37,744 nucleotides of DNA from a virus, in the IMG/VR virus record IMGVR_UViG_3300010033_000003, positions 1 to 37,744 of that record. One strand, written 5' to 3'. The translations under genes and the position numbers were made by a program. This document shows positions 1-37,744 of this stretch, in pieces (positions within the stretch are counted from its first letter, which is position 1; every line of letters begins with the position of its first letter). The notes below the pieces were generated by a model. It saw only the letters and a list, made by a program, of their open reading frames with translations. It did no database searches and had not been told where the DNA came from.

Positions 1-123
1 ATAATTCTAAAACTGTTATTAAAACTCTACGTATGTTAGGTGATGTTGCCGCAGGTGATCAACACAGATTGGATGCTTTAACTTTAGCTTTTGCACAATC
101 ACAAGCTGCGGGAAGATTATTAG
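1..123. repeat. Terminal direct repeat, identical to 37622-37744 (circular-closure overlap)
   Basis: ATAATTCTAAAACTGTTATT...GCGGGAAGATTATTAG is read at both window ends. Joining them keeps the tape measure ORF in frame. Confidence 0.9.
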
Positions 124-1163
124 GTCAAGACCTTTTACAATTTGTTAACGCAGGTTTTAATCCTTTACAAATCATTGCAAAAAAGACAGGTAAGGAAATG
201 CTTGATCTTAAAAAAATGATGGAAAAAGGACTAGTTCCATTTAAACTTATTAGAAAAGCTTTTGAGGCAGCCACTTCAAAAGGTGGTGATTTCTATAGAT
301 TTACTCAAAAAATGTCAACCACAATGGCAGGACGATGGTCTACGGCTATGGGAAAAGGTAAAGCCGCTATAGGTGAATTAGGTTTAGTATTAAAACCTAT
401 ATTTTTAAAATTTATAAACAATGCAATAAAGGCTATAGACAGAATACGAGATTTTATAGACGGAAATAAAGAATTAATAAGAACTATAGCAAAATTGACG
501 ATTAAAATAGGTGGTACAATTTTAGCTTTAAAAGGTTTGCGATTTGCGTTTTTTGGTGCATGGACTGCAATAAAAAAGAATCCAATTGGTCTTTTGATAG
601 CTGCTTTTGTTTCATTAGATACTTATCTTCAAAAAACATCAAAAGGAACTTTTTCAATTGTAACGGGGTTAAAATTGTATTGGGCTGAATTGAAATTTGG
701 TTTTAGGACTTTAAGTAGCTTTTTTGCAAAAACTGGAAATATATTATCAAACGTTTTTAAAGGCATAGAACAAGGAATGTTCGGAAATCTAAAGTCTGCT
801 AAAATGTACTTTAAAAATGTTAAAAATATAGCTCAAGGCATATTTAAAGTTGACAAAACAAGTAGACAGCAGTACGAAAGAGAAGTATTGGCTATTATGG
901 AAAAAGCCAAAAAAACTGCTATAAAAATGCCTAGTGTCGGAGGAGTTACCCCAGAATTTGACTTTAATTTTTCGGATGAAATGAAAAAGCTGCAAGCCGA
1001 GGGCGTTGTTTCTGGAAAAATTCAAACATTCAATATTAATATTAATAGTTTGACGGGTGTTGGCACTTTATCTACTACAAACGTTACAGAAGGAGGAGCA
1101 GCAGCGGGACAAGCTGTAGTAGATGTATTGTTAAAAACTTTATCTGATATAAGACCGATTTAA
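1..1163 (+). CDS. Tail tape measure protein, C-terminal part (codon phase starts at base 3)
   Basis: Same frame as 37291 once the 123-nt overlap is collapsed. It has hydrophobic and coiled segments, and the stop is at 1161-1163. Confidence 0.8.
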   Translation, partial: NSKTVIKTLRMLGDVAAGDQHRLDALTLAFAQSQAAGRLLGQDLLQFVNAGFNPLQIIAKKTGKEMLDLKKMMEKGLVPFKLIRKAFEAATSKGGDFYRFTQKMSTTMAGRWSTAMGKGKAAIGELGLVLKPIFLKFINNAIKAIDRIRDFIDGNKELIRTIAKLTIKIGGTILALKGLRFAFFGAWTAIKKNPIGLLIAAFVSLDTYLQKTSKGTFSIVTGLKLYWAELKFGFRTLSSFFAKTGNILSNVFKGIEQGMFGNLKSAKMYFKNVKNIAQGIFKVDKTSRQQYEREVLAIMEKAKKTAIKMPSVGGVTPEFDFNFSDEMKKLQAEGVVSGKIQTFNININSLTGVGTLSTTNVTEGGAAAGQAVVDVLLKTLSDIRPI

Positions 1164-11756: not shown

Positions 11757-12432
11757 AAAGATGTTACAATGTGCCAAAAATCTTGCTAAAAAAGCAAAAG
11801 AAAGGCAATTAAGACCTTTTTTTAAAGGTTGTTCGGTAGAAATGTTTAGAGAGCTTTTTATAGCTTATGCAAATGTAGAGCTTTCAAAGCGTGACCCAAA
11901 CTCTGAATTTATTATCGATGATGATAATAGAGATGTTATAAATCAGCTTTATTTCTACATGATTGGAAGCGATAAATACGAAGGAAACTTGAATAAAGGA
12001 ATTCTTTTGCTTGGTAATCTTGGAAGTGGTAAAACTATCATCATGCAAACTTTCGTCAATGTTTGGAATGATATCAGCTTACAATCTGGATACAACAAGG
12101 TTATAAAATCATGTTCAGCAGTAAAGATCGTTGATTTGATTTCTCAAAAAAAGCTAAGCGATCAAGATGCAATGTTAAAAGATCAAATGTACAATGCTGC
12201 ATTCTTTGTTGATGATATTGGGAAAGAAAAATTAAAAGTAGTAAACTACGGTACTGAGGAATTTCCGCTTATCGATATGTTTTTGAAGCGATACGATAAA
12301 GGATGTGTTACTTTCGCTACTGGAAATTATAAGATCGCTACTTTGACAGAATTGTACGGTGAAACCGTAGCAGATCGTTTAATAGAATTGTTTCATACTC
12401 TTGTTTTAAAGGGTGATAGTCGTAGAAAATAA
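11737..12432 (+). CDS. DnaC/IstB-like AAA+ helicase loader
   Basis: Walker A LLLGNLGSGKT and Walker B AAFFVDDIGKE. Confidence 0.65.
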   Translation: MQAINFEKMLQCAKNLAKKAKERQLRPFFKGCSVEMFRELFIAYANVELSKRDPNSEFIIDDDNRDVINQLYFYMIGSDKYEGNLNKGILLLGNLGSGKTIIMQTFVNVWNDISLQSGYNKVIKSCSAVKIVDLISQKKLSDQDAMLKDQMYNAAFFVDDIGKEKLKVVNYGTEEFPLIDMFLKRYDKGCVTFATGNYKIATLTELYGETVADRLIELFHTLVLKGDSRRK

Positions 12433-12448
12433 ATTAAAATTTAATAAC

Positions 12449-12661
12449 ATGAATAAGAGAAAATTATCCCGTTTAGGTTTTTTAGTTTTAGTAATTCAAG
12501 TATTATTCTTGTTTGGTTTAATGTTAACATCTTGTGAAAAAACTTATTTGGATCAAGAGGAATTGGATAGAGTTTCCAAAACTAAAAAAGACACCACTCA
12601 AAAAGGTGGTGGAATTACTTTTGAAGAATGGAATAAGGACACAACTGAAGTAAAATTTTAG
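12449..12661 (+). CDS. Small lipoprotein (70 aa)
   Basis: MNKRKLSRLGFLVLVIQVLFLFGLMLTS|C has an LTSC lipobox. Confidence 0.55.
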   Translation: MNKRKLSRLGFLVLVIQVLFLFGLMLTSCEKTYLDQEELDRVSKTKKDTTQKGGGITFEEWNKDTTEVKF

Positions 12662-12662
12662 T

Positions 12663-14123
12663 ATGGAAAAAATAACTAAAAATGTTGTCTTCAAGCCTAA
12701 TAATAAAAAGCAGGTACAGTTTATAGATACTGTAATGAAGGCAGAACATACAGTTTTCTTATTTGGTGGTGCAATTCGTGGTGGCAAGACTTTCGTAGTC
12801 TTGTGCATCACGATTTTACTTTGTAAGATTTTTCCAGGGTCTAGATGGGTAATAGTGCGAAAAGATTTGAAAAGACTACGTGAAAATACAAGACCTTCAC
12901 TAAATAAGTTTATAACTGGTGTAGACGTAAAAATTAATGAACAACACCAAACTTTTATGTTTCCAAACGGTTCAATGATCATGTTTAAAGGTGAAAACTA
13001 TGATCGAGATAAAACGTTAGAATCATTTAAAGGACTAGAAACAAACGGTTTTATACTTGAAGAGGTTTCGGAAATTAGAGAGGTAACATATTACAAATGT
13101 ATCGAGCGTGCGGGCTCTTATATCATCCCAAACGTACCACTTGATAAGCAGCCGCCTCCATTGGTTTTAATGACTTGTAACCCTACGCAAACTTGGGTAA
13201 AACAATTGATTTATGATCCTTGGAAACTTGATCAAGAATTGATTCAGAAAAATGCAAAGCCGAAACATTTGCCGAAACACGTTTATTATTTGCCTTCATA
13301 TGTAACCGATAATGAAGCAAACTTAACAAAGTCATATTTAGAAAATATCAAGAATATGCCTCTTTATGAATACGAGGTGTTTGTTTTGGGGAACTGGGAC
13401 GTGGTTTTAAAGACCTCAAATGCTTTTTGGCATCAGTTTACTATGGATCAAGTAAAAGGTGTCTTCTATGATCCCGAAACGACTGTGCACGTTTCCATCG
13501 ATGCGAACAGTTTGCCTTATTGCTCAGCTTCATTCTGGCAGGTGTACCCAAAACAAAAGAAATTGGTACAGTTTCACGAAATTGCCGCTTCAGATCCAAA
13601 TAATCATGCTAGCGGTTTAGGTCGATTGGTTGCAGAATATTTGAATGAAGTTGAATACGCGGATGTTTTATACATTTACGGCGATGCTTCTACAAAGAAT
13701 CAAAACACAATTGATCCTGACAAAAAATCATTCTTTGATTTGTTTCTAGAACAATTAGCCTCAGAATTTAAAACAATCGATGAAATTGCACAATCAAATC
13801 CTAGAATTGCTAAAACAGGAGAATTTGTGAACGCACTTCACGCGGGTTATGATGGATGGAAATTAATAATCGGAGAAACATGCAAATACTCGATTTCAGA
13901 TTACATGAGTGTTAAAAAAGCGATGGACGGAACAATGGAGAAAAAGAGGGAAACCGATGATGAAGGTAGTAGTTACGAAAAACACGGTCACTTTTCAGAT
14001 TGTAAAAGATATCTATGCCACCGATTAATAAATGATGTGTTTCATAAATGGGATGGTCGTTTTTCTGAACCTTCTGAACCTTTGTCGGTCGATCCTTTTG
14101 AAGACTATGAAGAAAGTTATTGA
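12663..14123 (+). CDS. terL: Terminase large subunit
   Basis: Walker A FGGAIRGGKT, Walker B GFILEEVSE, coupling motif MTCNP, and a C-terminal nuclease-like VSIDANS...GDAS. Confidence 0.85.
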   Translation: MEKITKNVVFKPNNKKQVQFIDTVMKAEHTVFLFGGAIRGGKTFVVLCITILLCKIFPGSRWVIVRKDLKRLRENTRPSLNKFITGVDVKINEQHQTFMFPNGSMIMFKGENYDRDKTLESFKGLETNGFILEEVSEIREVTYYKCIERAGSYIIPNVPLDKQPPPLVLMTCNPTQTWVKQLIYDPWKLDQELIQKNAKPKHLPKHVYYLPSYVTDNEANLTKSYLENIKNMPLYEYEVFVLGNWDVVLKTSNAFWHQFTMDQVKGVFYDPETTVHVSIDANSLPYCSASFWQVYPKQKKLVQFHEIAASDPNNHASGLGRLVAEYLNEVEYADVLYIYGDASTKNQNTIDPDKKSFFDLFLEQLASEFKTIDEIAQSNPRIAKTGEFVNALHAGYDGWKLIIGETCKYSISDYMSVKKAMDGTMEKKRETDDEGSSYEKHGHFSDCKRYLCHRLINDVFHKWDGRFSEPSEPLSVDPFEDYEESY

Positions 14124-14127
14124 TTTT

Positions 14128-14158
14128 TTTGCATTTATAAGGATAATTTGTATATTTG
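14128..14158 (+). promoter_or_regulatory. Consensus Bacteroidota-type promoter, 5 nt after the terL stop
   Basis: TTTG (14128-14131), a 19-nt spacer, then TATATTTG (14151-14158). Confidence 0.65.
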
Positions 14159-14164
14159 TACAAA

Positions 14165-14254
14165 GTGATAGCAAAAATTGTTCATAGTTATTTTGTTTTT
14201 TGGTTAAAGTGGCGGGTAGTCGTTGTAGGTGCCCGCCCACAAAAAATTTTTTAA
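14165..14254 (+). ncRNA. Candidate ~85-90 nt small RNA, or alternatively a leaderless 29-aa hydrophobic micro-ORF
   Basis: Bounded by the promoter above and a GC hairpin plus A6T6. A GTG-initiated frame reads VIAKIVHSYFVFWLKWRVVVVGARPQKIF. Confidence 0.3.
14209..14252 (+). terminator. GC-rich hairpin plus an A6T6 tract
   Basis: GGCGGG (14211-14216) pairs with CCCGCC (14232-14237). Flanking pairs are extendable. It is followed by AAAAAATTTTTT. Confidence 0.4.
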
Positions 14255-14335
14255 TTGTTATGTTTTTATTATTCAGTGGTAAAGTCAACCCTCAAGACTT
14301 TAAGATCTCCCAAATAACGCGGTAAATAGCTCAAT

Positions 14336-14409
14336 AGTCCATTGGCTCAGTTGGTTAGAGTACTAGGTTGTCAGCCTAGGGATCACGGGTTCGAGTCCCG
14401 TATGGACTG
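14336..14409 (+). tRNA. tRNA-Asp (anticodon GTC)
   Basis: Folded by hand. Acceptor AGTCCAT/ATGGACT; D arm GCTC/GAGT; anticodon arm CTAGG-TTGTCAG-CCTAG with GTC at 14370-14372; 5-nt variable loop; T arm ACGGG-TTCGAGT-CCCGT; discriminator G. CCA is not encoded. Confidence 0.9.
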
Positions 14410-14411
14410 CT

Positions 14412-14485
14412 AAAGAACCTTTTTTTAAAAACTGAGTGCGAAAGTGGATAATTCCATTTAGTAGCACTCCACTGGTTCTTTTTAA
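14412..14485 (+). ncRNA. Nested-helix RNA element / long-range terminator after the tRNA
   Basis: Outer helix AAAGAACC (14412-14419) with GGTTCTTT (14474-14481), then T-rich sequence. Inner helix GAGTGC (14434-14439) with GCACTC (14464-14469). Competing helices AGTGGA/TCCACT and TGGA/TCCA. Confidence 0.4.
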
Positions 14486-14502
14486 TATTAAAAATAATAA
14501 AT

Positions 14503-14781
14503 ATGTACAAAACATATAAAGAACAAGAGACTCACGGAAAACTAAATGGTAGAATAATAAGGTATCTATTAGATAGTTATTTGATTGGTGTTATAGAATT
14601 TAGAGCTCCACATAAGCAATACAAAGATGAATTTACAATAAAGACAATACATAAAAAAGCTTTTAGTAGAAGATTCTTAATTACAAAGCTCAGAATAGAA
14701 ACACCAAAAGAAGTGTACAAGAGAGCTGAGAAGTGGTTAGAAAAAAGAATGGTAAAAAACGAGTTTGATAAATATTTTTAA
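14503..14781 (+). CDS. Hypothetical basic protein (92 aa)
   Basis: Clean ORF in the island, K/R-rich, with no motif recognised. Confidence 0.6.
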   Translation: MYKTYKEQETHGKLNGRIIRYLLDSYLIGVIEFRAPHKQYKDEFTIKTIHKKAFSRRFLITKLRIETPKEVYKRAEKWLEKRMVKNEFDKYF

Positions 14782-14786
14782 AAACA

Positions 14787-14814
14787 CTCAAGAGTCACGA
14801 GAAGAGGTTGACTC
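14787..14814 (+). promoter_or_regulatory. Hairpin A of a covarying 5'-UTR hairpin family
   Basis: CTCAAGA flank. Stem GAGTCA/TGACTC, loop CGAGAAGAGGT. 27 nt upstream of the ATG at 14842. Confidence 0.5.
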
Positions 14815-14841
14815 ATCCATTAATAATTAAAATCAATCAAA

Positions 14842-15117
14842 ATGGAAAATGCAAAACAAATGAAAGAATTAAGCTTGAGAAGTGCAAGCGGTAGAGTAGA
14901 TGACATGATTCATGATTCTGCCAATAAAGGTTTTAATCATTGTGATATTAATTTCATATTATCTAAAGATAAAATAATTGAATTGGTTGATCTTGGTTAT
15001 ATAATTGACTGCAAAGATGAATCTTTTTATAAATCAAATGAATATTTTTACAAACCAGATGGATATAAATCTTATTTACCTTCAAGAGATAAAAAAGTTT
15101 TGAGAATTGAATGGTAG
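14842..15117 (+). CDS. Hypothetical protein (91 aa)
   Basis: Clean ORF with no motif recognised. Confidence 0.6.
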   Translation: MENAKQMKELSLRSASGRVDDMIHDSANKGFNHCDINFILSKDKIIELVDLGYIIDCKDESFYKSNEYFYKPDGYKSYLPSRDKKVLRIEW

Positions 15118-15123
15118 AAACAC

Positions 15124-15145
15124 AGCCCCTTAACGGGGGCTTATT
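15124..15145 (+). terminator. Rho-independent terminator (weak T tract)
   Basis: AGCCCC-TTAACG-GGGGCT followed by TATTT. Confidence 0.55.
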
Positions 15146-15148
15146 TCG

Positions 15149-15176
15149 CTCAAGATCTACGAGAAGTGGTTAGATC
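15149..15176 (+). promoter_or_regulatory. Hairpin B of the covarying hairpin family
   Basis: CTCAAGA flank. Stem GATCTA/TAGATC, loop CGAGAAGTGGT. Three stem pairs differ from hairpin A and all are compensated. Confidence 0.5.
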
Positions 15177-15307
15177 AAATTTAAAAATTAAAACCATGGG
15201 AACTGATATTTAAAATTCAGGACTAGTAATCCGATTAGGTTTTAAAAATCCTCTTCCCCGCCATCATTAAGATGTAAGTGCAAAGGGGCGAATTTTAAAG
15301 GCACAAC

Positions 15308-15330
15308 GCACAGTTTCGAGGGTTCTGTGC
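15308..15330 (+). promoter_or_regulatory. Hairpin C (related loop)
   Basis: Stem GCACAG/CTGTGC, loop TTTCGAGGGTT. 25 nt upstream of the ATG at 15356. Confidence 0.4.
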
Positions 15331-15355
15331 AAATTTAAATCAAAAACGAAATAGA

Positions 15356-15709
15356 ATGAGAGATGTTATAAAGAATATAATAAAGAAAAAAATTTCTGAG
15401 CTAGAAGAAAAAGGTAGAAAATGCATTTTGCCGTTAGAGATGAAATTTCCTATAAAATTCAACAATAAAGAATATGAACTGACAATTCCTTTTAAGGGTA
15501 AGAATAACAAAAAACCAAAAATTTTGGAAATAATCAAATACAAAGGAATTAAAGGTTGTGTTATTTATTCAAAAGAAGATGAAATATTTCACGGTAAAAT
15601 ACTAGATACAAGACATCTTTTTTTATATGAAGGCAAAACCAGAGAAGAATTAAAAAAGAATTTTGAAGATATGGTCTTAATGTTCATTGAAGACAAAATA
15701 AAAGACTAA
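15356..15709 (+). CDS. HicB-family antitoxin-like protein, with an N-terminal extension and no DNA-binding tail
   Basis: YKGIKGCVIYSKEDEIFHGKILDTRHLFLYEGKTREELKKNFEDMVLMFIED matches the HicB-family signature YKGY.G.V....ED..FHG.I......I.FEG.T..EL...F...VD.YL. No HicA-like ORF is nearby. Confidence 0.65.
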   Translation: MRDVIKNIIKKKISELEEKGRKCILPLEMKFPIKFNNKEYELTIPFKGKNNKKPKILEIIKYKGIKGCVIYSKEDEIFHGKILDTRHLFLYEGKTREELKKNFEDMVLMFIEDKIKD

Positions 15710-15713
15710 TTTC

Positions 15714-15744
15714 TTTGCAGATTAAAAAATAATTACTATCATTG
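15714..15744 (+). promoter_or_regulatory. Near-consensus promoter
   Basis: TTTG-N19-TATCATTG, with one mismatch. Confidence 0.4.
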
Positions 15745-15784
15745 CATAGGACATATACATAGAGACTACGTTTTTGACATTCGA

Positions 15785-15822
15785 GAGCCAGATCCAAATT
15801 TTTGCGGTCTGGTTCTTTTTTT
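15785..15822 (+). terminator. Rho-independent terminator immediately upstream of terS
   Basis: GAGCCAGATC-N11-GGTCTGGTTC (with G-U pairs) followed by TTTTTTT. Confidence 0.65.
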
Positions 15823-15851
15823 GTATATTGATTAAAACAAACACAGCAAAC

Positions 15852-16448
15852 ATGGATAAGAATACAGAAAAGGAGTATGAAGACAGATTACAAATAGCGT
15901 TTTCACTCGTTGAAGATTTAAAAGATAAGGTAGAAGGTTTACAGACTCAAAAAGTAGCGCCGATTTGGGAGAATACGAAAATGGAGTTTGATAAAGACGG
16001 AAAAGTAAAGAAAAACCCAGGTGGAAGACCAAGAGCGTTTGAGAATCCAAAAGTACTTTGGGAAAAAGCAGTAGAGTATTTCCAGTGGTGTGATGAAAAC
16101 CCATACTTTAAAAATGAACTCGTTAAAGGTGGTAAGATGGCAGGAAAACTCATTTCTGTACCAACTGTAAGACCTTACACTTTAGGAGGGCTCTGCACCT
16201 TCATGAGTACTGGTACAAGCACTCTACACGACTACGAGAATAGAGAAGGCTTTGAAGAGTATTCGGAAATCATAAAGCGTATTAAGGAAATTATTAGGAC
16301 CCAAAAGTTTGAAGGTGCATCGATTGGCGCGTTTAATCCAAACATTATAGCTCAAGATTTAGGGCTTGCAAATAAGATCGAACACAAAGGTGAAGTAAAA
16401 ACAACTGAAAGTATAATTATCTACGCAGGTGAGGAAATAAAAATTTGA
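15852..16448 (+). CDS. terS: Terminase small subunit
   Basis: From MDKNTEK. GGRPRAFENPKVLWEKAVEYFQWC, then RPYTLGGLCTFMSTGTSTLHDYE...FEEYSEIIKRIK. This is the pattern of HTH-type small terminases. Confidence 0.65.
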   Translation: MDKNTEKEYEDRLQIAFSLVEDLKDKVEGLQTQKVAPIWENTKMEFDKDGKVKKNPGGRPRAFENPKVLWEKAVEYFQWCDENPYFKNELVKGGKMAGKLISVPTVRPYTLGGLCTFMSTGTSTLHDYENREGFEEYSEIIKRIKEIIRTQKFEGASIGAFNPNIIAQDLGLANKIEHKGEVKTTESIIIYAGEEIKI

Positions 16449-16547
16449 TTCAAAACGATTTCCATGCTGTGGGGGTGGTCTTTAGGGGCTGCCCTTTACT
16501 TTGTATCAGAATGAAAAGAAAGTCGCTTAGAAGCGATAAAAAGCATG

Positions 16548-16582
16548 AAAAAAGCAGCACGTTGATTTGGCGTGCTGCTTTT
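16548..16582. terminator. Bidirectional terminator between convergent terS and the leftward early block
   Basis: A6-AGCAGCACG-N9-CGTGCTGCT-TTT. Confidence 0.7.
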
Positions 16583-16603
16583 GGTTGATGGAAAAGTGAA
16601 AAA

Positions 16604-17329
16604 TTACTTGATCCATGCTTGTTTTGCTTGTACTAAAGCTTCTAAAGTACTAACATCTTTATATTCTTTAATTGTAAAGATAAGTTCCCTTATAATCTCA
16701 ACAGCTAGATCACTTTTTAAGATCTCTAATATAATCTTATTTTCCTCTTGGTTAACTATTTCTAGCTTTAATCTGTGAGCTTCTTCGGTTTTACCTTCTG
16801 CATAAAGTCTACCAAGTTTTTCATATTTTTCAGAATTAAGTCTAGAAAAAGTTTTTTTAACAACATCCTTATTAGACACTTCTTCATTAGATGTAAAATC
16901 AAGTACTTCTTTAATAGGATAATTCTTACAGATATAAGAGGCTAATCTTATTTGCCTCATTGTTGATATTTTTTTAAACATTTTATTAATAGTTCCATCA
17001 CTTAGATTATGAATTCTTTCAATAGATGCTGGGTTATGACCAAGAGGTGATAATACATATGAAAGATTAAATCTCATTTTTGATAACTGTTTTTCCGAAT
17101 AATCTTCTATAGTTCTGTTGTTAAATTCAGGATCAAGCTCGTCATTTATATACTGAACTATGACGAATCTACTTAAAGACCCAATTTCATAATCTTCATT
17201 AATGTATCTACTAACAAGAGTACTGCTTAAACCAATTTTTTTACTTACAGAAACTAAAGTTTCATTACCAATCTTTGCTCTTAATAGCTTTGAAATTTCG
17301 TCTTTCGACATTTTGTAGCTTGCTTTCAT
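16604..17329 (-). CDS. Putative transcriptional regulator with two HTH-like segments (241 aa)
   Basis: LVSVSKKIGLSSTLVSRYIN, and a second segment IERIHNLSDGTINKMFKK. Last gene of the leftward block. Confidence 0.5.
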   Translation of the reverse strand: MKASYKMSKDEISKLLRAKIGNETLVSVSKKIGLSSTLVSRYINEDYEIGSLSRFVIVQYINDELDPEFNNRTIEDYSEKQLSKMRFNLSYVLSPLGHNPASIERIHNLSDGTINKMFKKISTMRQIRLASYICKNYPIKEVLDFTSNEEVSNKDVVKKTFSRLNSEKYEKLGRLYAEGKTEEAHRLKLEIVNQEENKIILEILKSDLAVEIIRELIFTIKEYKDVSTLEALVQAKQAWIK

Positions 17330-17355
17330 GTTTTTATTTTTAAAATTATTAATAT

Positions 17356-17736
17356 TTATTTTTTACTTCTCTTAGGTTGAAATGCCATTTGTTCTTTCCA
17401 CCAGTCTTCTGTACTTTGTTCAGGTATTTCCTTTTTCTTACTCTTATTATACCCAATAAAGACTTGTTTCTCACACTTGACATACACTTTTGATTTTTCA
17501 CCTGCAATAATACAAGTAACAATAACATCAGGATTTTCAACTTCTTTCAATGTGGCTTCAATTTTTACTTTTTCTCCGTAAAATCTAGCCTCCCAAATAT
17601 GTTTTCTTTTACTCTCTTGTTCAACTGCAAGTAAATAGTTTGTTCTATCACTCAAAAAGAAATAAGCCGCTCTAATTGGTTCACTTTCGCAAACGTTCCA
17701 CTTGTCTATTGTTCTAAATCTTAATATTTTTTTCAT
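17356..17736 (-). CDS. Hypothetical early protein (126 aa)
   Basis: Clean ORF downstream of the promoter at 17760-17791. Confidence 0.6.
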   Translation of the reverse strand: MKKILRFRTIDKWNVCESEPIRAAYFFLSDRTNYLLAVEQESKRKHIWEARFYGEKVKIEATLKEVENPDVIVTCIIAGEKSKVYVKCEKQVFIGYNKSKKKEIPEQSTEDWWKEQMAFQPKRSKK

Positions 17737-17759
17737 GATGTATGAATTTGATTACACCA

Positions 17760-17791
17760 CTAATATAGAAACAATATTTAAAAAAATCAAA
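17760..17791 (-). promoter_or_regulatory. Early promoter (family member)
   Basis: Minus strand: TTTG-N20-TATATTAG, then the leader TGGTGTAATCAAATT. Confidence 0.5.
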
Positions 17792-17823
17792 CAAAAATGT
17801 TTATAAATATCGAGGAAAGTAAG

Positions 17824-17858
17824 CAAAAAATAATACCGTCATTATTAGTGACGGTATT
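17824..17858 (-). terminator. Rho-independent terminator (leftward)
   Basis: 10-bp stem AATACCGTCA/TGACGGTATT with a 7-nt loop, followed on the minus strand by TTTTTTG. Confidence 0.65.
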
Positions 17859-17879
17859 GGTTGTGTTTGGCGGTTAAAA

Positions 17880-18011
17880 TTAATCTTCTAAATATCTCAC
17901 TGAATGGTTTAAATTCTTACACATCTTCTTGTGATCATTAAAATTGTAAGGGAGTGGTATGTATCTTTTGCAATATGGACATACTCTGTAATTGTTTCTT
18001 TTTGGCTTCAT
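17880..18011 (-). CDS. Candidate 43-aa zinc-ribbon-like ORF
   Basis: MKPKRNNYRVCPYCKRYIPLPYNFNDHKKMCKNLNHSVRYLED (CxxC...HxxxC). Absent from the track. It fills the gap between YopX and the terminator. Confidence 0.4.
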   Translation of the reverse strand: MKPKRNNYRVCPYCKRYIPLPYNFNDHKKMCKNLNHSVRYLED

Positions 18012-18023
18012 ATGTTTTTTATG

Positions 18024-18431
18024 CTATGCCTTTCGGCGGTTGTTTATAAAATCGTAAATATCTCCAATTATTTTGTAATTAAATTTATGATATTCATGAA
18101 GCGAAATATATTTAGGAAGACGACCTCTACCTTTAATTCTTTTCAACACAATAGAACCTTCATGCCAACACACTACTCTAATTACTTCTTTGTCTGTTCC
18201 GTAATTGTTAGAACACACATCACCAATAAATACTTTTTCTCCAAACATTTCGTATCCTGTATATTGACAAACTGTATTCGGATCTACTTCTATTCCTGTG
18301 TAAAATCCAGTAGGGGTAATAATGTGTTTGCCTGTCTCAAAAATCCTACAATTAATTCCTGAATCAATAATAGATCCGTATAGCCATTCGTTATGACTAG
18401 CCCTTCGTGCTTTGAATAATATTTCTTTCAT
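18024..18431 (-). CDS. YopX-family protein
   Basis: Overall pattern MKEILFKARR...EWLYG...CQYTG...D..GKEIF.GD plus the C-terminal IIGDIYD, typical of YopX. Confidence 0.6.
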   Translation of the reverse strand: MKEILFKARRASHNEWLYGSIIDSGINCRIFETGKHIITPTGFYTGIEVDPNTVCQYTGYEMFGEKVFIGDVCSNNYGTDKEVIRVVCWHEGSIVLKRIKGRGRLPKYISLHEYHKFNYKIIGDIYDFINNRRKA

Positions 18432-18498
18432 TTTATTTGTTTTTAGTTAGACATGTTGTAAATATACAAAACTATTTATATATATCGAGGAAAATAAA

Positions 18499-18536
18499 CA
18501 AAAAAGCTGATATCGATTTAACGACATCAGCTTTTA
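18499..18536 (-). terminator. Rho-independent terminator (leftward)
   Basis: AGCTGAT.TCG-N6-CGA.ATCAGCT with one mismatch. There is a T tract on the minus strand. Confidence 0.6.
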
Positions 18537-18552
18537 AATAGGTTTTTAAGCT

Positions 18553-19005
18553 TTACGCTTTACACATCGGCTTTGATGGACGTATTTTTTTGCCTTCATG
18601 ATCAAGATTGAATAGTTTGTGATACCACTTTCTTGAACGTTCTTTATTCCAACTGTTACGCAAAGTACTACAATTGTCTACTAGACGCGAGTTTTGTTCC
18701 TCTAGCTTTGCTTTTTCATCTTGTAGATAATCGACAAGAGTTTTAGATTCCTTTTTGTGCTTGTCAAAAGCTTCCTTTATCTCTTGTACCTTTATAGAAT
18801 CTTTTTGAGTTTTCTCTATTAAAAACTTGTTGTCAACTTCTAGCTGAGTTTTTTTGTCCGATAGATCATTAAAGTTCTTTTGTAGTGACTTATGCCACGC
18901 TTCAAGATTGTTGTATTTTTCTTGAAGAATCTCGTTAGACTTTTCAATATTCTGAGCTACTTTAATAACGTGAGCTTTTGTTTTGCAATTTTCAAATTTT
19001 GACAT
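18553..19005 (-). CDS. Coiled-coil early protein (150 aa)
   Basis: Heptad-rich K/E/L/Q sequence with a basic C-terminus. Confidence 0.6.
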   Translation of the reverse strand: MSKFENCKTKAHVIKVAQNIEKSNEILQEKYNNLEAWHKSLQKNFNDLSDKKTQLEVDNKFLIEKTQKDSIKVQEIKEAFDKHKKESKTLVDYLQDEKAKLEEQNSRLVDNCSTLRNSWNKERSRKWYHKLFNLDHEGKKIRPSKPMCKA

Positions 19006-19049
19006 TGTAATTATTTATTTAATTAGACATTGGTGAAATGAATCACCGA

Positions 19050-19271
19050 TTAAGATAATTTTAAATGATTGAAGGTTTCGCAATGCTTTTTTGCATCCTC
19101 AAGATCATTGAAAAAAAGATTCTCTTCTCTTGAATCGAAACGCGTATAATCTTTAGCGTGATTAGCTGTAAGATAATACATATCTTTTCTAGCGCTGTAA
19201 AATATACGGAATAAAACGTTTTTACTTTTACCTTCGAAATGGGATAACCCAATAGATTTAAATCTGATCAT
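19050..19271 (-). CDS. Hypothetical early protein (73 aa)
   Basis: The start MIRFK at 19271 overlaps the upstream stop (ATGA). Confidence 0.55.
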   Translation of the reverse strand: MIRFKSIGLSHFEGKSKNVLFRIFYSARKDMYYLTANHAKDYTRFDSREENLFFNDLEDAKKHCETFNHLKLS

Positions 19272-19447
19272 AGTTTTACATTGTTTTTGTACCAATCTTC
19301 AAATTGGTCCATATTTGATTCATAAAAAAGGCATTTTGAACACGGGATATCAAAACAATTATCGTTATTGGCTAAACAATACGCTCTTTGTATCATATCT
19401 ATTTCGTGCTTTTTGCCTGGATATTTCAAACTTTTATACTTATGCAT
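19268..19447 (-). CDS. Candidate 59-aa Cys-rich ORF
   Basis: MHKYKSLKYPGKKHEIDMIQRAYCLANNDNCFDIPCSKCLFYESNMDQFEDWYKNNVKL. Directly downstream of promoter 19471-19502. Absent from the track. Confidence 0.45.
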   Translation of the reverse strand: MHKYKSLKYPGKKHEIDMIQRAYCLANNDNCFDIPCSKCLFYESNMDQFEDWYKNNVKL

Positions 19448-19470
19448 ATCAAACGTTTTTGATTACACTG

Positions 19471-19502
19471 CTAATGTATACACAATATATGTAAAAAGCA
19501 AA
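19471..19502 (-). promoter_or_regulatory. Early promoter (family member)
   Basis: Minus strand: TTTG-N20-TACATTAG, then the leader CAGTGTAATCAAAAA. Confidence 0.5.
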
Positions 19503-19511
19503 TAAAATTAT

Positions 19512-19541
19512 AAAAAAAACACCCCTATCGAAATAGAGGTG
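19512..19541 (-). terminator. Rho-independent terminator (leftward)
   Basis: Minus strand: CACCTCTAT-TTCG-ATAGGGGTG followed by T8. Confidence 0.65.
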
Positions 19542-19548
19542 ATTTAAT

Positions 19549-19863
19549 TTAAACTTTCCAGTCTTCAAAGACTTCTTCTTTTTGTGGTGTTTCGTCGAAA
19601 GGTCTTAATACTTCAACATAGATTTCCCGCATTTTAAGCGGCTTATTTTTATAACTATGTTTAAACTGAACCATATCGATAACACCAGTGAAGGGGCAAA
19701 GTAAAACGTTATTGTATGAATGTTTTCCGTTAACAATTACATTGCATCGGTAAATAGTTTTTTCACCGTTGTATTTGTAATTTGGGCTAAATGATACTAC
19801 CAAGCCCGTTTGATCTGTTCTTTCGTCTTCTGGTAGTTGAAAACGGTCGTTATCGCTACTCAT
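19549..19863 (-). CDS. Hypothetical early protein (104 aa)
   Basis: The start MSSDNDR at 19863 overlaps the upstream stop by 1 nt. Confidence 0.55.
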   Translation of the reverse strand: MSSDNDRFQLPEDERTDQTGLVVSFSPNYKYNGEKTIYRCNVIVNGKHSYNNVLLCPFTGVIDMVQFKHSYKNKPLKMREIYVEVLRPFDETPQKEEVFEDWKV

Positions 19864-20084
19864 TAGAATAAGTGAATTATAAGACAACCTATTGCGGCAC
19901 AACCTCCAATTATTATAGCTGCAAGGGCTATAGGATCCATTTTTTTCGCACTAACTCTACACATTCTTATAATTGAATTGTGAGCTTTCACGGTGTCCTT
20001 GATTAATTTCTTATCGTAGCGGTTTAGCTTGTAGTTTTCCTTCTCTTGAAGGATGCTTTCTACTTGTTGTATTGTCTTGTTCAT
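19863..20084 (-). CDS. Small tail-anchored membrane protein (73 aa)
   Basis: C-terminal hydrophobic segment IALAAIIIGGCAAIGCLIIHLF. Confidence 0.55.
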   Translation of the reverse strand: MNKTIQQVESILQEKENYKLNRYDKKLIKDTVKAHNSIIRMCRVSAKKMDPIALAAIIIGGCAAIGCLIIHLF

Positions 20085-21099: not shown

Positions 21100-21128
21100 A
21101 TTTTTGTTTTTTATAATTATTTACACCA

Positions 21129-21159
21129 CTAAAGTATACATTAAGAATGTAAAAAGCAA
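21129..21159 (-). promoter_or_regulatory. Early promoter (family member)
   Basis: Minus strand: TTG-N20-TACTTTAG, then the leader TGGTGTAAATAA. Confidence 0.5.
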
Positions 21160-36719: not shown

Positions 36720-37106
36720 ATGGAAAATACAATTTTAAATCCAGTAGAATTAGCCGAAAAAGGCGATTTGGAAGCTTTGGAAGAAGGTGGAAAGTATGAA
36801 GTAATCGAGCTTAAACTTAAATATAAAAAAGAAGTTATAAGACTTGTTTGTCGTGCAGATTTCGATTTGCTTAAAAAGGCAATGAATTCCATGATGAATA
36901 TGGATATTTCAGGAGATAAAAATGTTTCTGCTTCTTTAGATATATTTGGTGCAGGAGACAAGATTTTATTCTTTGGTGGATTATTAAACAAAGAAGAGGT
37001 TTTATCAAAAGCATCTTTGAGAATGAAAGCTTGTTCAAAACTTGGTGAATGGGTACAGGATCTTATGGATTTTGAAGATGAAGAAATAGAGGAAAAAAAA
37101 AGTTAA
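36720..37106 (+). CDS. Tail assembly chaperone (G-like, zero frame)
   Basis: 128 aa, acidic, directly upstream of the tape measure. It ends in an A9 run. Confidence 0.55.
   Translation: MENTILNPVELAEKGDLEALEEGGKYEVIELKLKYKKEVIRLVCRADFDLLKKAMNSMMNMDISGDKNVSASLDIFGAGDKILFFGGLLNKEEVLSKASLRMKACSKLGEWVQDLMDFEDEEIEEKKS
37094..37100 (+). promoter_or_regulatory. Slippery heptamer A_AAA_AAA for a -1 programmed frameshift
   Basis: Zero-frame codons GAA AAA AAA AGT TAA. The -1 frame is open from 37100. Confidence 0.5.
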
Positions 37107-37312
37107 GCAATACTGAAAAGATTGATTGTATTCTTAATCTACTAGGGAAGAAACCAACCAATTTCCGAGAATGGCGTGAAATGCAAAACGACGTTGTCGG
37201 AGGGTTGGTTTTTTTTACGGAAATGATTCAGGAAGCAACGAGAGCAGGTGTAGCACTCGCAATTAATGATTGTTTTGGAGGAAAAAAATAATGGCACAAA
37301 CTACGTATATAA
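37100..37312 (+). CDS. -1 frame extension giving a G-T-type chaperone fusion (70 codons)
   Basis: Hand translation: KLSNTEKIDCILNLLGKKPTNFREWREMQNDVVGGLVFFTEMIQEATRAGVALAINDCFGGKNKWHKLRI, with no stops until the TAA at 37310-37312. Confidence 0.5.
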
Positions 37313-37744
37313 TTAGGCTTAGGGATCGAGTAACGAAACAAGCCCAAAGAATGCAAAAGTCAATTAATAGAACTGAAAGAAGCGCTAAAAGGTTGGGCAA
37401 TACTTTGGATTTTGTTGGGAGAATTTCCGCGGCTGTTGCTGTTGGAGGAATTTTTAAATTTGGTGCTGAACTAGAGCAAGCAAAATTAAAATTTAATACT
37501 TTGACTGGATCTGTTGAAAAAGGTACAAAATTATTTAATGATCTACGAGACTTTGCAAACACTACACCTTTTCAAGATAATAGATTACAGAAAAATGCAT
37601 CTACTCTACTAGCTTTCGGAAATAATTCTAAAACTGTTATTAAAACTCTACGTATGTTAGGTGATGTTGCCGCAGGTGATCAACACAGATTGGATGCTTT
37701 AACTTTAGCTTTTGCACAATCACAAGCTGCGGGAAGATTATTAG
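37291..37744 (+). CDS. Tail tape measure protein, N-terminal part. The full ORF is 37291..37621 joined to 1..1163, 497 aa.
   Basis: ATG at 37291 with GGAGGA 8 nt upstream, open to the window end. It carries the ...LRMLGDVAAGDQHRLDALTLAFAQSQAAGRL tape-measure core motif and follows the sheath, tube and chaperone genes. Confidence 0.8.
   Translation, partial: MAQTTYIIRLRDRVTKQAQRMQKSINRTERSAKRLGNTLDFVGRISAAVAVGGIFKFGAELEQAKLKFNTLTGSVEKGTKLFNDLRDFANTTPFQDNRLQKNASTLLAFGNNSKTVIKTLRMLGDVAAGDQHRLDALTLAFAQSQAAGRLL
37622..37744. repeat. Second copy of the terminal direct repeat (equals 1-123)
   Basis: Exact 123-nt identity with the window start. Confidence 0.9.

What the first reader, a model, noticed from the sequence alone, without database searches (positions are those of the whole stretch)
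14787..15330. Family of 5'-UTR hairpins with a conserved loop and fully compensated stem changes
Hairpin A (14792-14814) has stem GAGTCA/TGACTC and hairpin B (15154-15176) has stem GATCTA/TAGATC. Three of the six base pairs differ, and every change is compensated. The 11-nt loops are nearly identical (CGAGAAG[A/T]GGT) and both share the 5' flank CTCAAGA. Hairpin C (15308-15330, GCACAG/CTGTGC, loop TTTCGAGGGTT) keeps CGAG..GGT. The element before the first island ORF carries GAGTG-CGAAAGTGG in the same position. Each sits 17-27 nt upstream of a start codon. A third CTCAAGA lies at 14291-14297, just upstream of the tRNA. Covariation with loop conservation points to an RNA element read by a trans factor. 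That factor could be a translational repressor, an antiterminator of the boxA/boxB kind (the flank of B, CGCTCAAGA, loosely recalls boxA CGCTCTTA), or a nuclease or processing signal. I do not recognise it as any described motif.
Basis: seen in the sequence. Interest (0 to 1): 0.72.

Follow-up and report, generated by a model that had tools for sequence, protein, structure and literature searches.

The report
Repeated leader hairpins in a phage island
Two (perhaps three) small hairpins with the same loop but different, fully compensated stems sit in front of orphan genes in a 1.65-kb accessory island of one Bacteroidota-type phage; they are real and probably a small regulatory RNA signal, but they occur nowhere else that could be searched, so their function is inferred only.

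Summary
The core observation holds. Hairpins A (14792-14814) and B (15154-15176) are exactly as described. Both have a 6-bp stem, and 3 of the 6 pairs are changed and fully compensated. The 11-nt loops are CGAGAAG[A/T]GGT, and both share the 5' flank CTCAAGA. This is not chance: 0 of 1000 shuffled genomes gave a comparable pair. Loop and flank are more conserved than the stem (p = 0.02).

Other candidate copies are weaker:
- C (15308-15330) has the same geometry and a related AU-rich leader, but only a weakly similar loop.
- A decayed copy, D (14716-14744), lies inside the end of ORF92.
- The element after the tRNA folds differently.
- The third CTCAAGA is not significant.

The window is a complete circular phage genome. 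The hairpins lie in an island between terL and terS that holds tRNA-Asp and three ORFan genes. All nine sampled clade relatives lack the island. No related hairpin turned up in Rfam, in 168 terL-related loci, or in pattern scans of IMG/VR and GTDB genomes.

Best reading (about 0.4): paralogous leader cassettes whose loop is read on the + strand RNA by an unknown factor, spread by local recombination. The boxA/boxB analogy is not supported. Interest is modest.

The parts
14128..14158 (+). Bacteroidota-type promoter-like site P1 (TTTG, 19 nt, TATATTTG) just after terL; the likely start of the island transcript
   Evidence: Own scan for TAnnTTTG with TTTG 16-23 nt upstream. The region resembles the pre-terS promoter of relative L170 by eye.
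14209..14240 (+). GC-rich hairpin (GTGGCGGG...CCCGCCCAC) followed by A6T6, about 50 nt after P1
   Evidence: Sequence; fold.
14280..14302 (+). Hairpin F (TAAAGT-CAACCCTCAAG-ACTTTA) containing the third CTCAAGA. Doubtful relative; predicted to fold as 7 bp with a 9-nt loop.
   Evidence: CTCAAGA alone is not significant.
14336..14410 (+). tRNA-Asp (GTC)
   Evidence: ARAGORN; Rfam RF00005, 65.5 bits.
14412..14481 (+). Element E: a stable nested structure after the tRNA, followed by a short run of three U. Its 5' half (TTTTTAAAAAC..GAGTGCGAAAGTGG) resembles A, but the fold differs.
   Evidence: -22.8 kcal/mol, z = -4.8, 0/200 shuffles. TTTTTAAAAAC occurs exactly only at 14422 and 14775. E-A alignment p = 0.05.
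14503..14781 (+). ORF92, a basic ORFan protein
   Evidence: Only itself among 1.84 billion representatives. Phage-like codon usage in frame. Called independently.
14716..14744 (+). Copy D: a decayed copy of the element inside the 3' end of ORF92. It shares the exact 14-mer GAGAAGTGGTTAGA with B and has no hairpin.
   Evidence: B-D local alignment p < 0.001.
14787..14841 (+). Cassette A: CTCAAGA, hairpin 14792-14814 (loop CGAGAAGAGGT) and a 27-nt AU-rich leader up to the ORF91 ATG
14842..15117 (+). ORF91, an ORFan flanked by cassettes A and B
   Evidence: No homologue among 5.8 billion proteins. Codon usage.
15124..15141 (+). Intrinsic-terminator-like GC hairpin after ORF91, immediately before cassette B
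15149..15214 (+). Cassette B: CTCAAGA, hairpin 15154-15176 (loop CGAGAAGTGGT), a 20-nt leader and a 5-codon ORF (15197-15214). Probably an orphaned leader.
15308..15355 (+). Cassette C: hairpin 15308-15330 (6 bp, 11-nt loop TTTCGAGGGTT) and a 25-nt leader up to the ORF117 ATG. Probable diverged member.
   Evidence: Shares CAAATTTAAA with B in the same register and AATT(A/T)AAATCAA with A.
15356..15709 (+). ORF117, an ORFan whose C-terminal half weakly resembles a HicB-like domain
   Evidence: phrog_9151, 1.2e-9. No other homologue.
15714..15824 (+). Conserved terS leader, marking the right-hand end of the island: promoter-like site (TTTG, 19 nt, TATCATTG), a hairpin at 15783-15817 and a T-run
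   Evidence: Fold z = -2.8. Same architecture in L170 and L169.
12663..14123 (+). terL, the left border of the island slot
   Evidence: phrog_979/phrog_2 and PF04466.
15852..16448 (+). terS (P22 gp3-like), the right border of the island slot
   Evidence: PF16677, 1.6e-26. A 198-aa gene was called independently.

Best explanation
A and B, probably the diverged C, and the decayed relic D are paralogous copies of a leader cassette of about 55 nt.

**What the cassette contains**
- CUCAAGA.
- A 6-bp hairpin that presents an 11-nt purine-rich loop, CGAGAAGNGGU.
- An AU-rich spacer and a start codon.

**Where it sits**
- The cassette is attached to the ORFan accessory genes of a 1.65-kb island inserted in the terL-terS slot of this phage.

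**Proposed mechanism**
- The island is transcribed rightward, probably from P1 at 14128-14158, as one RNA that also carries tRNA-Asp.
- On that RNA the stem only has to pair. The loop and the single-stranded 5' heptamer are read sequence-specifically by an unidentified phage or host factor.
- That factor co-regulates the island cistrons after transcription, either by blocking or timing translation or by directing processing and stability of the individual cistrons.
- The copies arose and spread by local duplication or recombination between cassettes. This also left relic D inside ORF92 and the orphan leader B with its 5-codon ORF.

**Shown**
- The sequences, the pairing and the compensated changes.
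- Stronger conservation of loop and flank than of stem.
- Same orientation as the genes, and positions 20-27 nt before ATGs.
- The island genes are ORFans, and the island is absent from relatives.

**Inferred**
- That the active molecule is RNA.
- That a trans-acting reader exists.
- What the regulatory outcome is.
For: - The A/B pair is not chance: 0/1000 shuffles; alignment p < 0.001.
- All three variable stem pairs are compensated.
- Loop plus flank has 1/16 differences against 6/12 in the stem (p = 0.023). The loop sequence is therefore constrained, but the stem sequence is not.
- A, B and C all have exactly 6 bp and 11 nt. Four of the 22 hairpins of that geometry in the genome fall within the 1 kb at 14280-15330.
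- All copies lie on the coding strand, 20-27 nt before an ATG, and are followed by related AU-rich leaders.
- The loops are predicted to be open.
- The island ORFs look like real genes and are ORFans. Genes like these, in a variable slot, are the usual carriers of private regulatory signals.
- A P1 promoter-like site lies upstream and several terminator-like hairpins lie in series, which fits a single processed or regulated transcript.
- Relic D and the 5-codon ORF after B fit turnover by recombination at the cassettes.
Against: - There are only two solid copies, all in one genome. No homologue was found anywhere, so no independent covariation exists.
- No candidate reader protein could be recognised. 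AlphaFold models of ORF92 and ORF117 were too poor to use.
- The hairpins are weak and not more stable than shuffled sequence.
- All 18 pairs are Watson-Crick, so nothing distinguishes RNA from DNA or one strand from the other.
- B stands directly after a terminator and in front of no real gene.
- There are no expression data.
Confidence: 0.4

Rival explanations
1. The cassettes are recombination joints or duplication remnants with only a generic role. They are leftovers of the events that built the island, comparable to the PeSL cassettes of T4-like phages. The hairpin is at most a generic 5' stabiliser or insulator between cistrons, and nothing reads the loop specifically.
For: - The island is unique to this phage, in a slot where relatives have nothing, one methylase gene or a repeat tract.
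- The genes are ORFans.
- Relic D and the orphan leader B show turnover.
- The island is bounded by two promoter-plus-hairpin modules.
- The phage encodes its own exonuclease and annealing-protein pair.
- PeSL recombination has been documented experimentally (PMC2839356, PMC4122927).
Against: - Recent duplication with neutral drift should not leave the stem 50% diverged yet perfectly compensated while loop and flank are 6% diverged (p = 0.023).
- The longest identical runs between A and B are only 7-8 nt, which is short for homologous exchange.
- A generic stabiliser has no need for a fixed 11-nt loop.
Confidence: 0.25
2. The element acts as DNA. The inverted repeat extrudes as a hairpin in single-stranded or supercoiled DNA, and its loop is recognised by a DNA enzyme such as a recombinase, nuclease or terminase-associated factor. 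An example would be a cassette-insertion or packaging-related site near the terminase genes.
For: - All stem pairs are Watson-Crick, with no G-T.
- Conserved loops with variable, compensated stems are typical of the origin and recombination hairpins read by HUH enzymes and of integron attC sites (general knowledge).
- The element lies between terL and terS. Relative L171 carries a 600-bp repeat tract in the same slot.
- Quasipalindrome correction can produce compensated arms without selection on RNA (general knowledge).
Against: - No HUH nuclease, integrase or transposase was recognised in the genome.
- The copies lie in one orientation, tied to start codons and AU-rich leaders.
- Relatives with related terminases have no such element.
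- P22 gp3-type small terminases recognise a pac site inside their own gene (general knowledge).
- A 6-bp AT-rich stem is a poor cruciform.
Confidence: 0.1
3. The element is a processive antitermination site, nut-like or LoaP-like. The hairpin in the nascent RNA recruits a factor that makes RNA polymerase read through the terminators in the island and in front of terS.
For: - A lies upstream of the terminator at 15124-15141, and B lies upstream of the terS-leader terminator at 15783-15817.
- Two copies with a one-base loop difference recall lambda nutL and nutR (general knowledge).
- The promoter, short leader, terminator, terS layout is conserved in the clade, and it implies that some read-through mechanism exists.
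Against: - The boxA match is only CGCTC, and only in B. There is no spacer between the flank and the hairpin.
- The loop is 11 nt rather than a GNRA-like pentaloop.
- No arginine-rich N-like protein or NusG paralogue was found.
- Relatives have the same terS-leader terminator but no such hairpin, so read-through there does not depend on it.
- Two sites 362 nt apart in a single operon would be redundant.
Confidence: 0.07
4. The functional strand is the minus strand. B and C each abut TAAATTTG, a perfect Bacteroidota -7 promoter box on the minus strand. The hairpins would then lie at or just after leftward transcription starts and act as operators or 5' ends of small antisense RNAs.
For: - TAAATTTG lies directly next to the hairpin, in the same register, at both B (15183-15176) and C (15337-15330).
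- On the minus strand at B, the distance from the box to the terminator (about 35 nt) resembles that of the terS leader.
Against: - Neither box has a -33 TTG/TTTG at 16-23 nt.
- A lacks the box.
- There is no minus-strand ORF downstream.
- The predicted start would fall inside the stem, so the RNA would not contain the hairpin.
- An operator should have conserved arms and a free centre, which is the opposite of what is seen.
- The shared flank is equally well explained as an AU-rich + strand leader.
Confidence: 0.06
5. The whole pattern is a chance resemblance in AT-rich intergenic DNA.
For: - The hairpins are not unusually stable.
- 6-bp hairpins are common: 22 in the genome have an 11-nt loop.
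- C, E, F and the third CTCAAGA are individually weak.
Against: - 0/1000 shuffles reproduce the A/B pair.
- A-B and B-D alignments have p < 0.001.
Confidence: 0.02

Closest known systems
PeSL cassettes (promoter-early stem-loops) of T4-like phages (PMC2839356, PMC4122927)
   Same: - Short repeated non-coding cassettes containing a stem-loop.
- They flank ORFan genes in a hypervariable region of a phage genome.
- They are plausibly the points at which genes are gained and lost. Here, relic D and the orphan leader B look like traces of such events.
   Different: - A PeSL contains a strong host-type promoter and a GC-rich stem-loop that terminates transcription.
- Cassettes A and B contain no + strand Bacteroidota promoter box and no terminator-like hairpin.
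- Their conserved part is the loop rather than the stem.
- Only 2-4 copies exist.
Lambda-type nut sites (boxA plus the boxB hairpin bound by N)
   Same: - A small hairpin in the leader RNA with a short conserved 5' element.
- Two copies per genome that differ by one loop base.
- Located upstream of terminators.
   Different: - boxB is a 5-bp stem with a 5-nt GNRA-like loop. Here the stem is 6 bp and the loop 11 nt.
- boxA is CGCTCTTA and is separated from boxB by a spacer. Here the flank is C(A/G)CTCAAGA and runs into the stem.
- No N-like protein was found, and relatives lack the element.
Phage translational operator hairpins (MS2/PP7 coat-protein operators; T4 RegA and gp32 sites; Mu Com)
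   Same: - A small hairpin near the start of a cistron.
- The loop bases are read by a protein while the stem sequence is free to covary.
   Different: - Those operators overlap or adjoin the ribosome-binding site or start codon. These end 20-27 nt upstream.
- The sequences are unrelated.
- Here the binding protein is unknown.
Leader hairpins or ops-type elements read by specialised NusG paralogues (LoaP, RfaH, Bacteroides UpxY)
   Same: - A short, operon-specific leader element with a small hairpin that licenses expression of accessory gene clusters. UpxY shows that this logic exists in Bacteroidota (general knowledge).
   Different: - No NusG/KOW protein is recognisable in the phage.
- There is no sequence similarity.
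- This was not tested functionally.
Integron attC sites and other DNA hairpins with conserved loops (HUH origins, REP/RAYT)
   Same: - The structure is conserved more than the stem sequence.
- One element accompanies each small gene cassette.
   Different: - attC sites are 57-141 nt, with R''/L''-L'/R' cores and extrahelical bases, and they need an integrase.
- REP elements occur in many copies per genome with conserved stems and a 5' GTAG.
- None of these features or enzymes is present.

Membership tests
Lambda-type nut site (boxA/boxB) | boxA consensus (CGCTCTTA-like) 5' of the hairpin, separated from it by a spacer | tested here: not met
   The flank is CACTCAAGA in A and CGCTCAAGA in B. 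Only CGCTC matches, and only in B. The flank overlaps the stem by 2 nt.
Lambda-type nut site (boxA/boxB) | boxB is a stem of about 5 bp with a 5-nt GNRA-like loop | tested here: not met
   The stem is 6 bp and the loop 11 nt, or 8 nt if C1-G10 pairs.
Lambda-type nut site (boxA/boxB) | A cognate small arginine-rich N-type protein encoded by the phage | tested here: inconclusive
   No small ORF has an arginine-rich N-terminus and there are no family hits. N proteins are hard to recognise by sequence.
Lambda-type nut site (boxA/boxB) | Located between a promoter and downstream terminators | tested here: met
   P1-like site at 14128-14158; terminator-like hairpins at 15124-15141 and 15783-15817. 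All are predictions only.
PeSL (promoter-early stem-loop) cassettes | The cassette contains a host-consensus promoter | tested here: not met
   No TAnnTTTG box on the + strand within cassettes A, B or C. The sigma-70 scan is at background level.
PeSL (promoter-early stem-loop) cassettes | The stem-loop is a stable, GC-rich terminator or attenuator | tested here: not met
   -6 to -9 kcal/mol, no T-run, and not called by the terminator scan.
PeSL (promoter-early stem-loop) cassettes | Repeated copies flank ORFans in a hyperplastic region | tested here: met
   A and B flank ORFan ORF91. The island is absent from all nine clade relatives sampled.
Any Rfam family | Match to a curated covariance model | tested here: not met
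   In 13900-16100, at E up to 10, only the tRNA matched. Nothing overlaps A or B. Across C there is only a sub-threshold chance-level hit, RAGATH-11 at 17.4 bits against a gathering score of 79.4.
Intrinsic terminator | GC-rich stem followed by a U-tract | tested here: not met
   The stems have 2-4 GC pairs and are followed by ATCCATT or AAATTTA.
Shine-Dalgarno / anti-SD pairing site | GGAGG-like sequence 5-10 nt upstream of the start codon | tested here: not met
   The purine tract lies about 28-38 nt upstream. The one variable loop position turns GAGG (A) into GUGG (B). Bacteroidota ribosomes ignore SD sequences (PMC7797042, PMC9976891).
Integron attC | 57-141 nt imperfect palindrome with RYYYAAC/GTTRRRY cores, plus an integron integrase | tested here: not met
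   The element is 23 nt. GTTRRRY fits only B. No integrase was recognised.
REP/RAYT-type repeats | Many copies per genome with conserved stem sequence and a 5' GTAG | tested here: not met
   There are two copies, with variable stems.

The most novel reading that the evidence does not exclude
The hairpin would be the address tag of a previously undescribed phage accessory-gene cassette system. Each ORFan would carry a leader hairpin whose invariant loop (CGAGAAGNGGU) and 5' CUCAAGA are read by a dedicated factor. The same element would also serve as the joint at which cassettes are inserted, duplicated and lost in the terL-terS slot. One 30-nt signal would then couple gene mobility to expression control in a lineage that lacks Shine-Dalgarno-based initiation.
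Probability: 0.07. Interest if true: 0.7.

Novelty: new variant of a known kind. Interest (0 to 1): 0.3.

Why it matters
**If the loop is read by a factor**
- It would be a compact operator of about 30 nt controlling accessory genes in a Bacteroidota phage. This host group does not use Shine-Dalgarno sequences, and little is known about how individual cistrons of phage polycistronic RNAs are regulated there.
- It would also be a second, independent example, after the PeSLs of T4-like phages, of small non-coding cassettes that travel with ORFan genes.

**As it stands**
- The element is private to one metagenomic phage and has two solid copies.
- It is a well-defined hypothesis for an experiment rather than a finding that changes a field.

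Tried and rejected
**Homologue searches (all negative)**
- The exact pattern CTCAAGANNNNCGAGAAGNGGT gave 7 matches in IMG/VR and more than 120 in GTDB genomes. This is about the number expected by chance, and none forms a hairpin. The double hit in a Flavobacteriales MAG (L213) lies in a repetitive R/D-rich coding region.
- Two relaxed patterns in IMG/VR gave nothing.
- A mismatch-tolerant hairpin scan of 168 terL-related and other loci gave nothing.
- Covariance model R1, built from A, B and C, found only its own training copies in the window. It found nothing significant in 164 related loci or in the nearest relatives with filters off.
- blastn of 12000-19900 against INPHARED phages matched only the tRNA.
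- Searches with the island proteins found nothing: ORF91, ORF117 and ORF92 have no homologue but themselves. Their exact sequences occur only on contigs identical to the window.

**Functional ideas tested and dropped**
- The idea that the gap after B is a decayed hicA gene got no support from Pfam or NCBIfam.
- AlphaFold models of ORF92 and ORF117 without alignments were too poor (pLDDT 47 and 55) to justify fold searches.
- The SD-like reading of the loop was rejected on distance and on the variable position.
- CsrA, Hfq, TRAP and PyrR-type motif resemblances were considered from memory. They were dropped as partial and untestable here. Rfam gave no hit, the PyrR-binding element included.
- A link between the loop's CGAG(G/A)A and the ATATCGAGGAAA repeats of the minus-strand block was rejected: 4 of 22 occurrences are intergenic, which is not compelling.
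- Partial resemblance of B to the tRNA D-arm (GCTCA...TGGTTAGA), and the GANTC/GATC methylation-type sites in the stems of A and B, were noted by eye. Both are treated as coincidence, because the stem sequence varies between copies.
- The MAFFT alignment of the two promoter-leader modules with those of relatives was too noisy to use quantitatively.
Full report
**What the window is**

The last 124 bases repeat the first 124, so the window is a circularly assembled, complete phage genome of about 37.6 kb with about 33% G+C. The gene order is as follows:
- tail and lysis genes;
- a replication/recombination block (single-strand annealing protein, exonuclease, NinG/Rap, DUF6291-HTH, DnaC-like loader);
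- terL (12663-14123);
- the region of the finding;
- terS (15852-16448, P22 gp3 family);
- a leftward block of small genes;
- a Mu gp36-like head-tail adaptor, the portal and other structural genes.

TerL relatives come from Bacteroidota-type phages and prophages.

**The observation**

- A and B have 6-bp stems that differ at three pairs, all compensated.
- Their 11-nt loops differ at one base (CGAGAAG[A/T]GGT).
- Both are preceded by CTCAAGA, whose last two bases open the stem.
- The exact loop pattern occurs only at these two places in the genome.

The A/B pair is not chance.
- Of 1000 dinucleotide-preserving shuffles, 16 contained any pair of perfect 6-bp hairpins with near-identical loops of at least 10 nt. 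None also shared the 5-nt flank.
- The A-B local alignment beats all 1000 shuffles.
- The divergence is unevenly spread. Loop plus flank shows 1 difference in 16 positions, against 6 in 12 in the stem (Fisher p = 0.023).
- Counted formally on A, B and C, every cell pairs and five of six pairs change on both sides. Slid registers pair at 17-39%. This count is partly circular, because the structure was read from these same sequences.

The hairpins are thermodynamically unremarkable: -6 to -9 kcal/mol, with z between +0.3 and -1.3.

**The weaker parts of the observation**
- *C.* It has exactly the same geometry as A and B (6 bp, 11 nt, no possible extension). It shares CAAATTTAAA with B in the same register after the stem, and AATT(A/T)AAATCAA with A in the leader (p = 0.025 and 0.036). 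Its loop shares only CGAG and GGT, in a different register. I treat it as a probable diverged member.
- *D.* A further, decayed copy (14716-14744) lies inside the last 20 codons of ORF92. It shares the exact 14-mer GAGAAGTGGTTAGA with B (B-D p < 0.001) but has lost the complementary arm.
- *E.* The element after the tRNA (14412-14481) begins with TTTTTAAAAAC. This 11-mer occurs exactly only there and in front of A. It contains GAGTGCGAAAGTGG, but it folds into a nested structure of -22.8 kcal/mol (z = -4.8) followed by a short run of three U. It is at best a remodelled relative (E-A p = 0.05).
- *Third CTCAAGA.* The copy at 14291 lies in another small hairpin, F. The heptamer occurs 10 times in the genome against 5.2 expected, so it is not significant.
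- *B's start codon.* The ATG after B opens only a 5-codon ORF, and no ORF of 20 codons or more follows on that strand before ORF117.

**Context**

The hairpins lie in a 1.65-kb island between terL and terS. In order, the island contains:
- a Bacteroidota-type promoter-like site (TTTG, 19 nt, TATATTTG at 14128-14158);
- a GC hairpin;
- tRNA-Asp;
- element E;
- ORF92, with relic D at its end;
- cassette A;
- ORF91;
- a terminator-like hairpin;
- cassette B with the mini-ORF;
- about 90 nt of non-coding sequence;
- cassette C;
- ORF117.

The terS leader follows. It consists of a second promoter-like site, a strong hairpin with a T-run, and terS about 30 nt further on. Relatives L169 and L170 show the same leader layout.

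The three ORFs have the phage's codon usage in frame, and an independent gene caller also called them. None has any homologue but itself in searches of 5.8 and 1.84 billion proteins. ORF117 has a weak HicB-like C-terminal match.

In all nine clade relatives sampled (TerL 49-62% identical), terL is followed by terS almost directly. The two exceptions carry one methylase gene (L169) or a 600-bp repeat tract (L171) in the slot. The island, and with it the hairpins, is therefore an accessory insertion private to this phage.

**Search for relatives of the element**

Nothing was found by any of the following:
- Rfam at E up to 10;
- a mismatch-tolerant hairpin scan and a covariance model on 164-168 related loci;
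- the covariance model on the rest of the genome;
- exact and relaxed pattern scans of IMG/VR;
- blastn against deposited phages.

The number of pattern matches equals the chance expectation, and none forms a hairpin. The qualification is that close relatives of this phage do not exist in the collections and the homologous slot is empty in the relatives that do.

**How it most likely works**

The data require three things:
- an element whose arms must pair but may have any sequence;
- a loop and 5' heptamer that are held constant;
- copies that sit in one orientation, at a fixed short distance before start codons, followed by related AU-rich leaders.

That combination is what a hairpin presenting a loop to a sequence-specific reader looks like. 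The orientation and the start-codon linkage favour the + strand RNA. My best explanation (about 0.4) has two parts:
- These are paralogous leader cassettes on a rightward island transcript. An unknown phage or host factor reads them to co-regulate the ORFan cistrons after transcription, through translation timing or through processing and stability. A transcript that also contains a tRNA must be processed in any case.
- The cassettes multiplied by local recombination, which left relic D and the orphan leader B.

Only the anatomy is shown.

**Rivals**
1. *Relics or recombination joints with at most a generic structural role (0.25).* The ORFan island, the relics and the flanking promoter-hairpin modules all fit. 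The contrast between a 50%-diverged but compensated stem and a 6%-diverged loop does not.
2. *A DNA-level hairpin read by a recombinase or a packaging factor (0.1).* The all-Watson-Crick stems and the location between the terminase genes fit. The absence of any such enzyme, and the linkage to start codons, do not.
3. *A nut-like or LoaP-like antitermination site (0.07).* The position upstream of terminators fits. The boxA/boxB features fail, no N-like or NusG-like protein is seen, and relatives keep the terS-leader terminator without the hairpin.
4. *Minus-strand promoters (0.06).* B and C each abut a perfect TAAATTTG -7 box on the minus strand. There is no -33 element, A has no box, no downstream gene exists, and the conservation pattern is the wrong way round for an operator.
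5. *Chance (0.02).* This is excluded for A and B.

**Comparison with known systems**

By function, the closest analogues are:
- the PeSL cassettes of T4-like phages (PMC2839356, PMC4122927);
- small protein-binding leader hairpins such as boxB, coat-protein operators and the LoaP leader hairpin.

The element is a member of none of them.
- PeSLs are defined by a host-consensus promoter and a terminator stem-loop. Both were tested here and not met.
- nut sites are defined by boxA, a spacer, a pentaloop boxB and an N protein. None of these is met.
- Integron attC, REP elements, intrinsic terminators and Shine-Dalgarno sites fail on size, copy number, U-tract or distance.
- The SD-like reading is also undercut because the single variable loop base breaks the GAGG, and because Bacteroidota ribosomes do not use SD pairing (PMC7797042, PMC9976891).

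**Verdict**
- A and B are a real, non-random pair of paralogous hairpins with a constrained loop.
- C is probably related, D is a relic, and E and F are doubtful.
- The element is undescribed but private to one genome. Its function is unproven, and no independent covariation can be obtained from current data.
- I rate it a new variant of a known kind (a phage accessory-gene leader or regulatory cassette), with interest about 0.3.

Noticed in passing
window 15714-15852; L170 11430-11545; L169 12035-12160: A conserved layout lies directly upstream of terS: a Bacteroidota-type promoter-like site, 40-60 nt of leader, a strong hairpin with a T-run, and the terS ATG about 30 nt further on. It resembles the lambda PR'-tR' late leader and suggests that late genes in this clade depend on antitermination or regulated read-through. 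The window carries a second such promoter-hairpin module at 14128-14240, so the island is bracketed by two of them.
   Followed up: partly
window 12663-16448 and loci L009, L010, L089, L169-L171, L335-L337 compared with L016, L018, L024, L092, L102, L338: In the close clade (TerL 49-62% identical) the gene order is terL then terS. More distant relatives (TerL 44% identical or less) have the usual terS directly upstream of terL.
   Followed up: partly
L171 1840-2400: The terL-terS slot of this relative holds about 600 bp of degenerate repeats (aaaactaaaaagt / ttgaaattt units) instead of genes. They may be iterons or protein-binding repeats.
   Followed up: no
window about 17795-17830 and 18470-18505 (motif read on the minus strand): TTTCCTCGATAT(A/T)TATAAA is repeated just after terminators and before promoter-like boxes in the leftward gene block. 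It is a candidate operator or promoter-associated motif.
   Followed up: no
window about 17755-17775, 19460-19480 and 21115-21135 (minus strand): Three copies of TAnnTTAG followed by (T/C)(G/A)GTGTAA(T/A) (consensus TGGTGTAAT), 25-160 nt upstream of leftward genes. They are probably a shared promoter type for that block.
   Followed up: no
window 1-124 and 37621-37744: The two ends are identical, showing a circular assembly. The repeat falls inside the tape-measure-like gene that spans the ends.
   Followed up: yes
window 14503-15709: All three island ORFs (92, 91 and 117 aa) have no homologue among billions of proteins, yet they show the phage's codon usage. ORF92 is strongly basic (pI 9.9).
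   Followed up: yes
window 14792-14814 and 15154-15176: The stems of A contain GANTC twice (GAGTC and GACTC), and the stems of B contain GATC twice. These are the target motifs of CcrM-type and Dam-type methylases. Relatives encode N6_N4_Mtase, MethyltransfD12 and DNA_methylase genes near this slot. This is probably coincidence.
   Followed up: no
window 37107-37290: The ORF ending at 37106 is followed by an overlapping reading frame upstream of the tape-measure-like gene. This is the usual position of a tail-chaperone frameshift.
   Followed up: no
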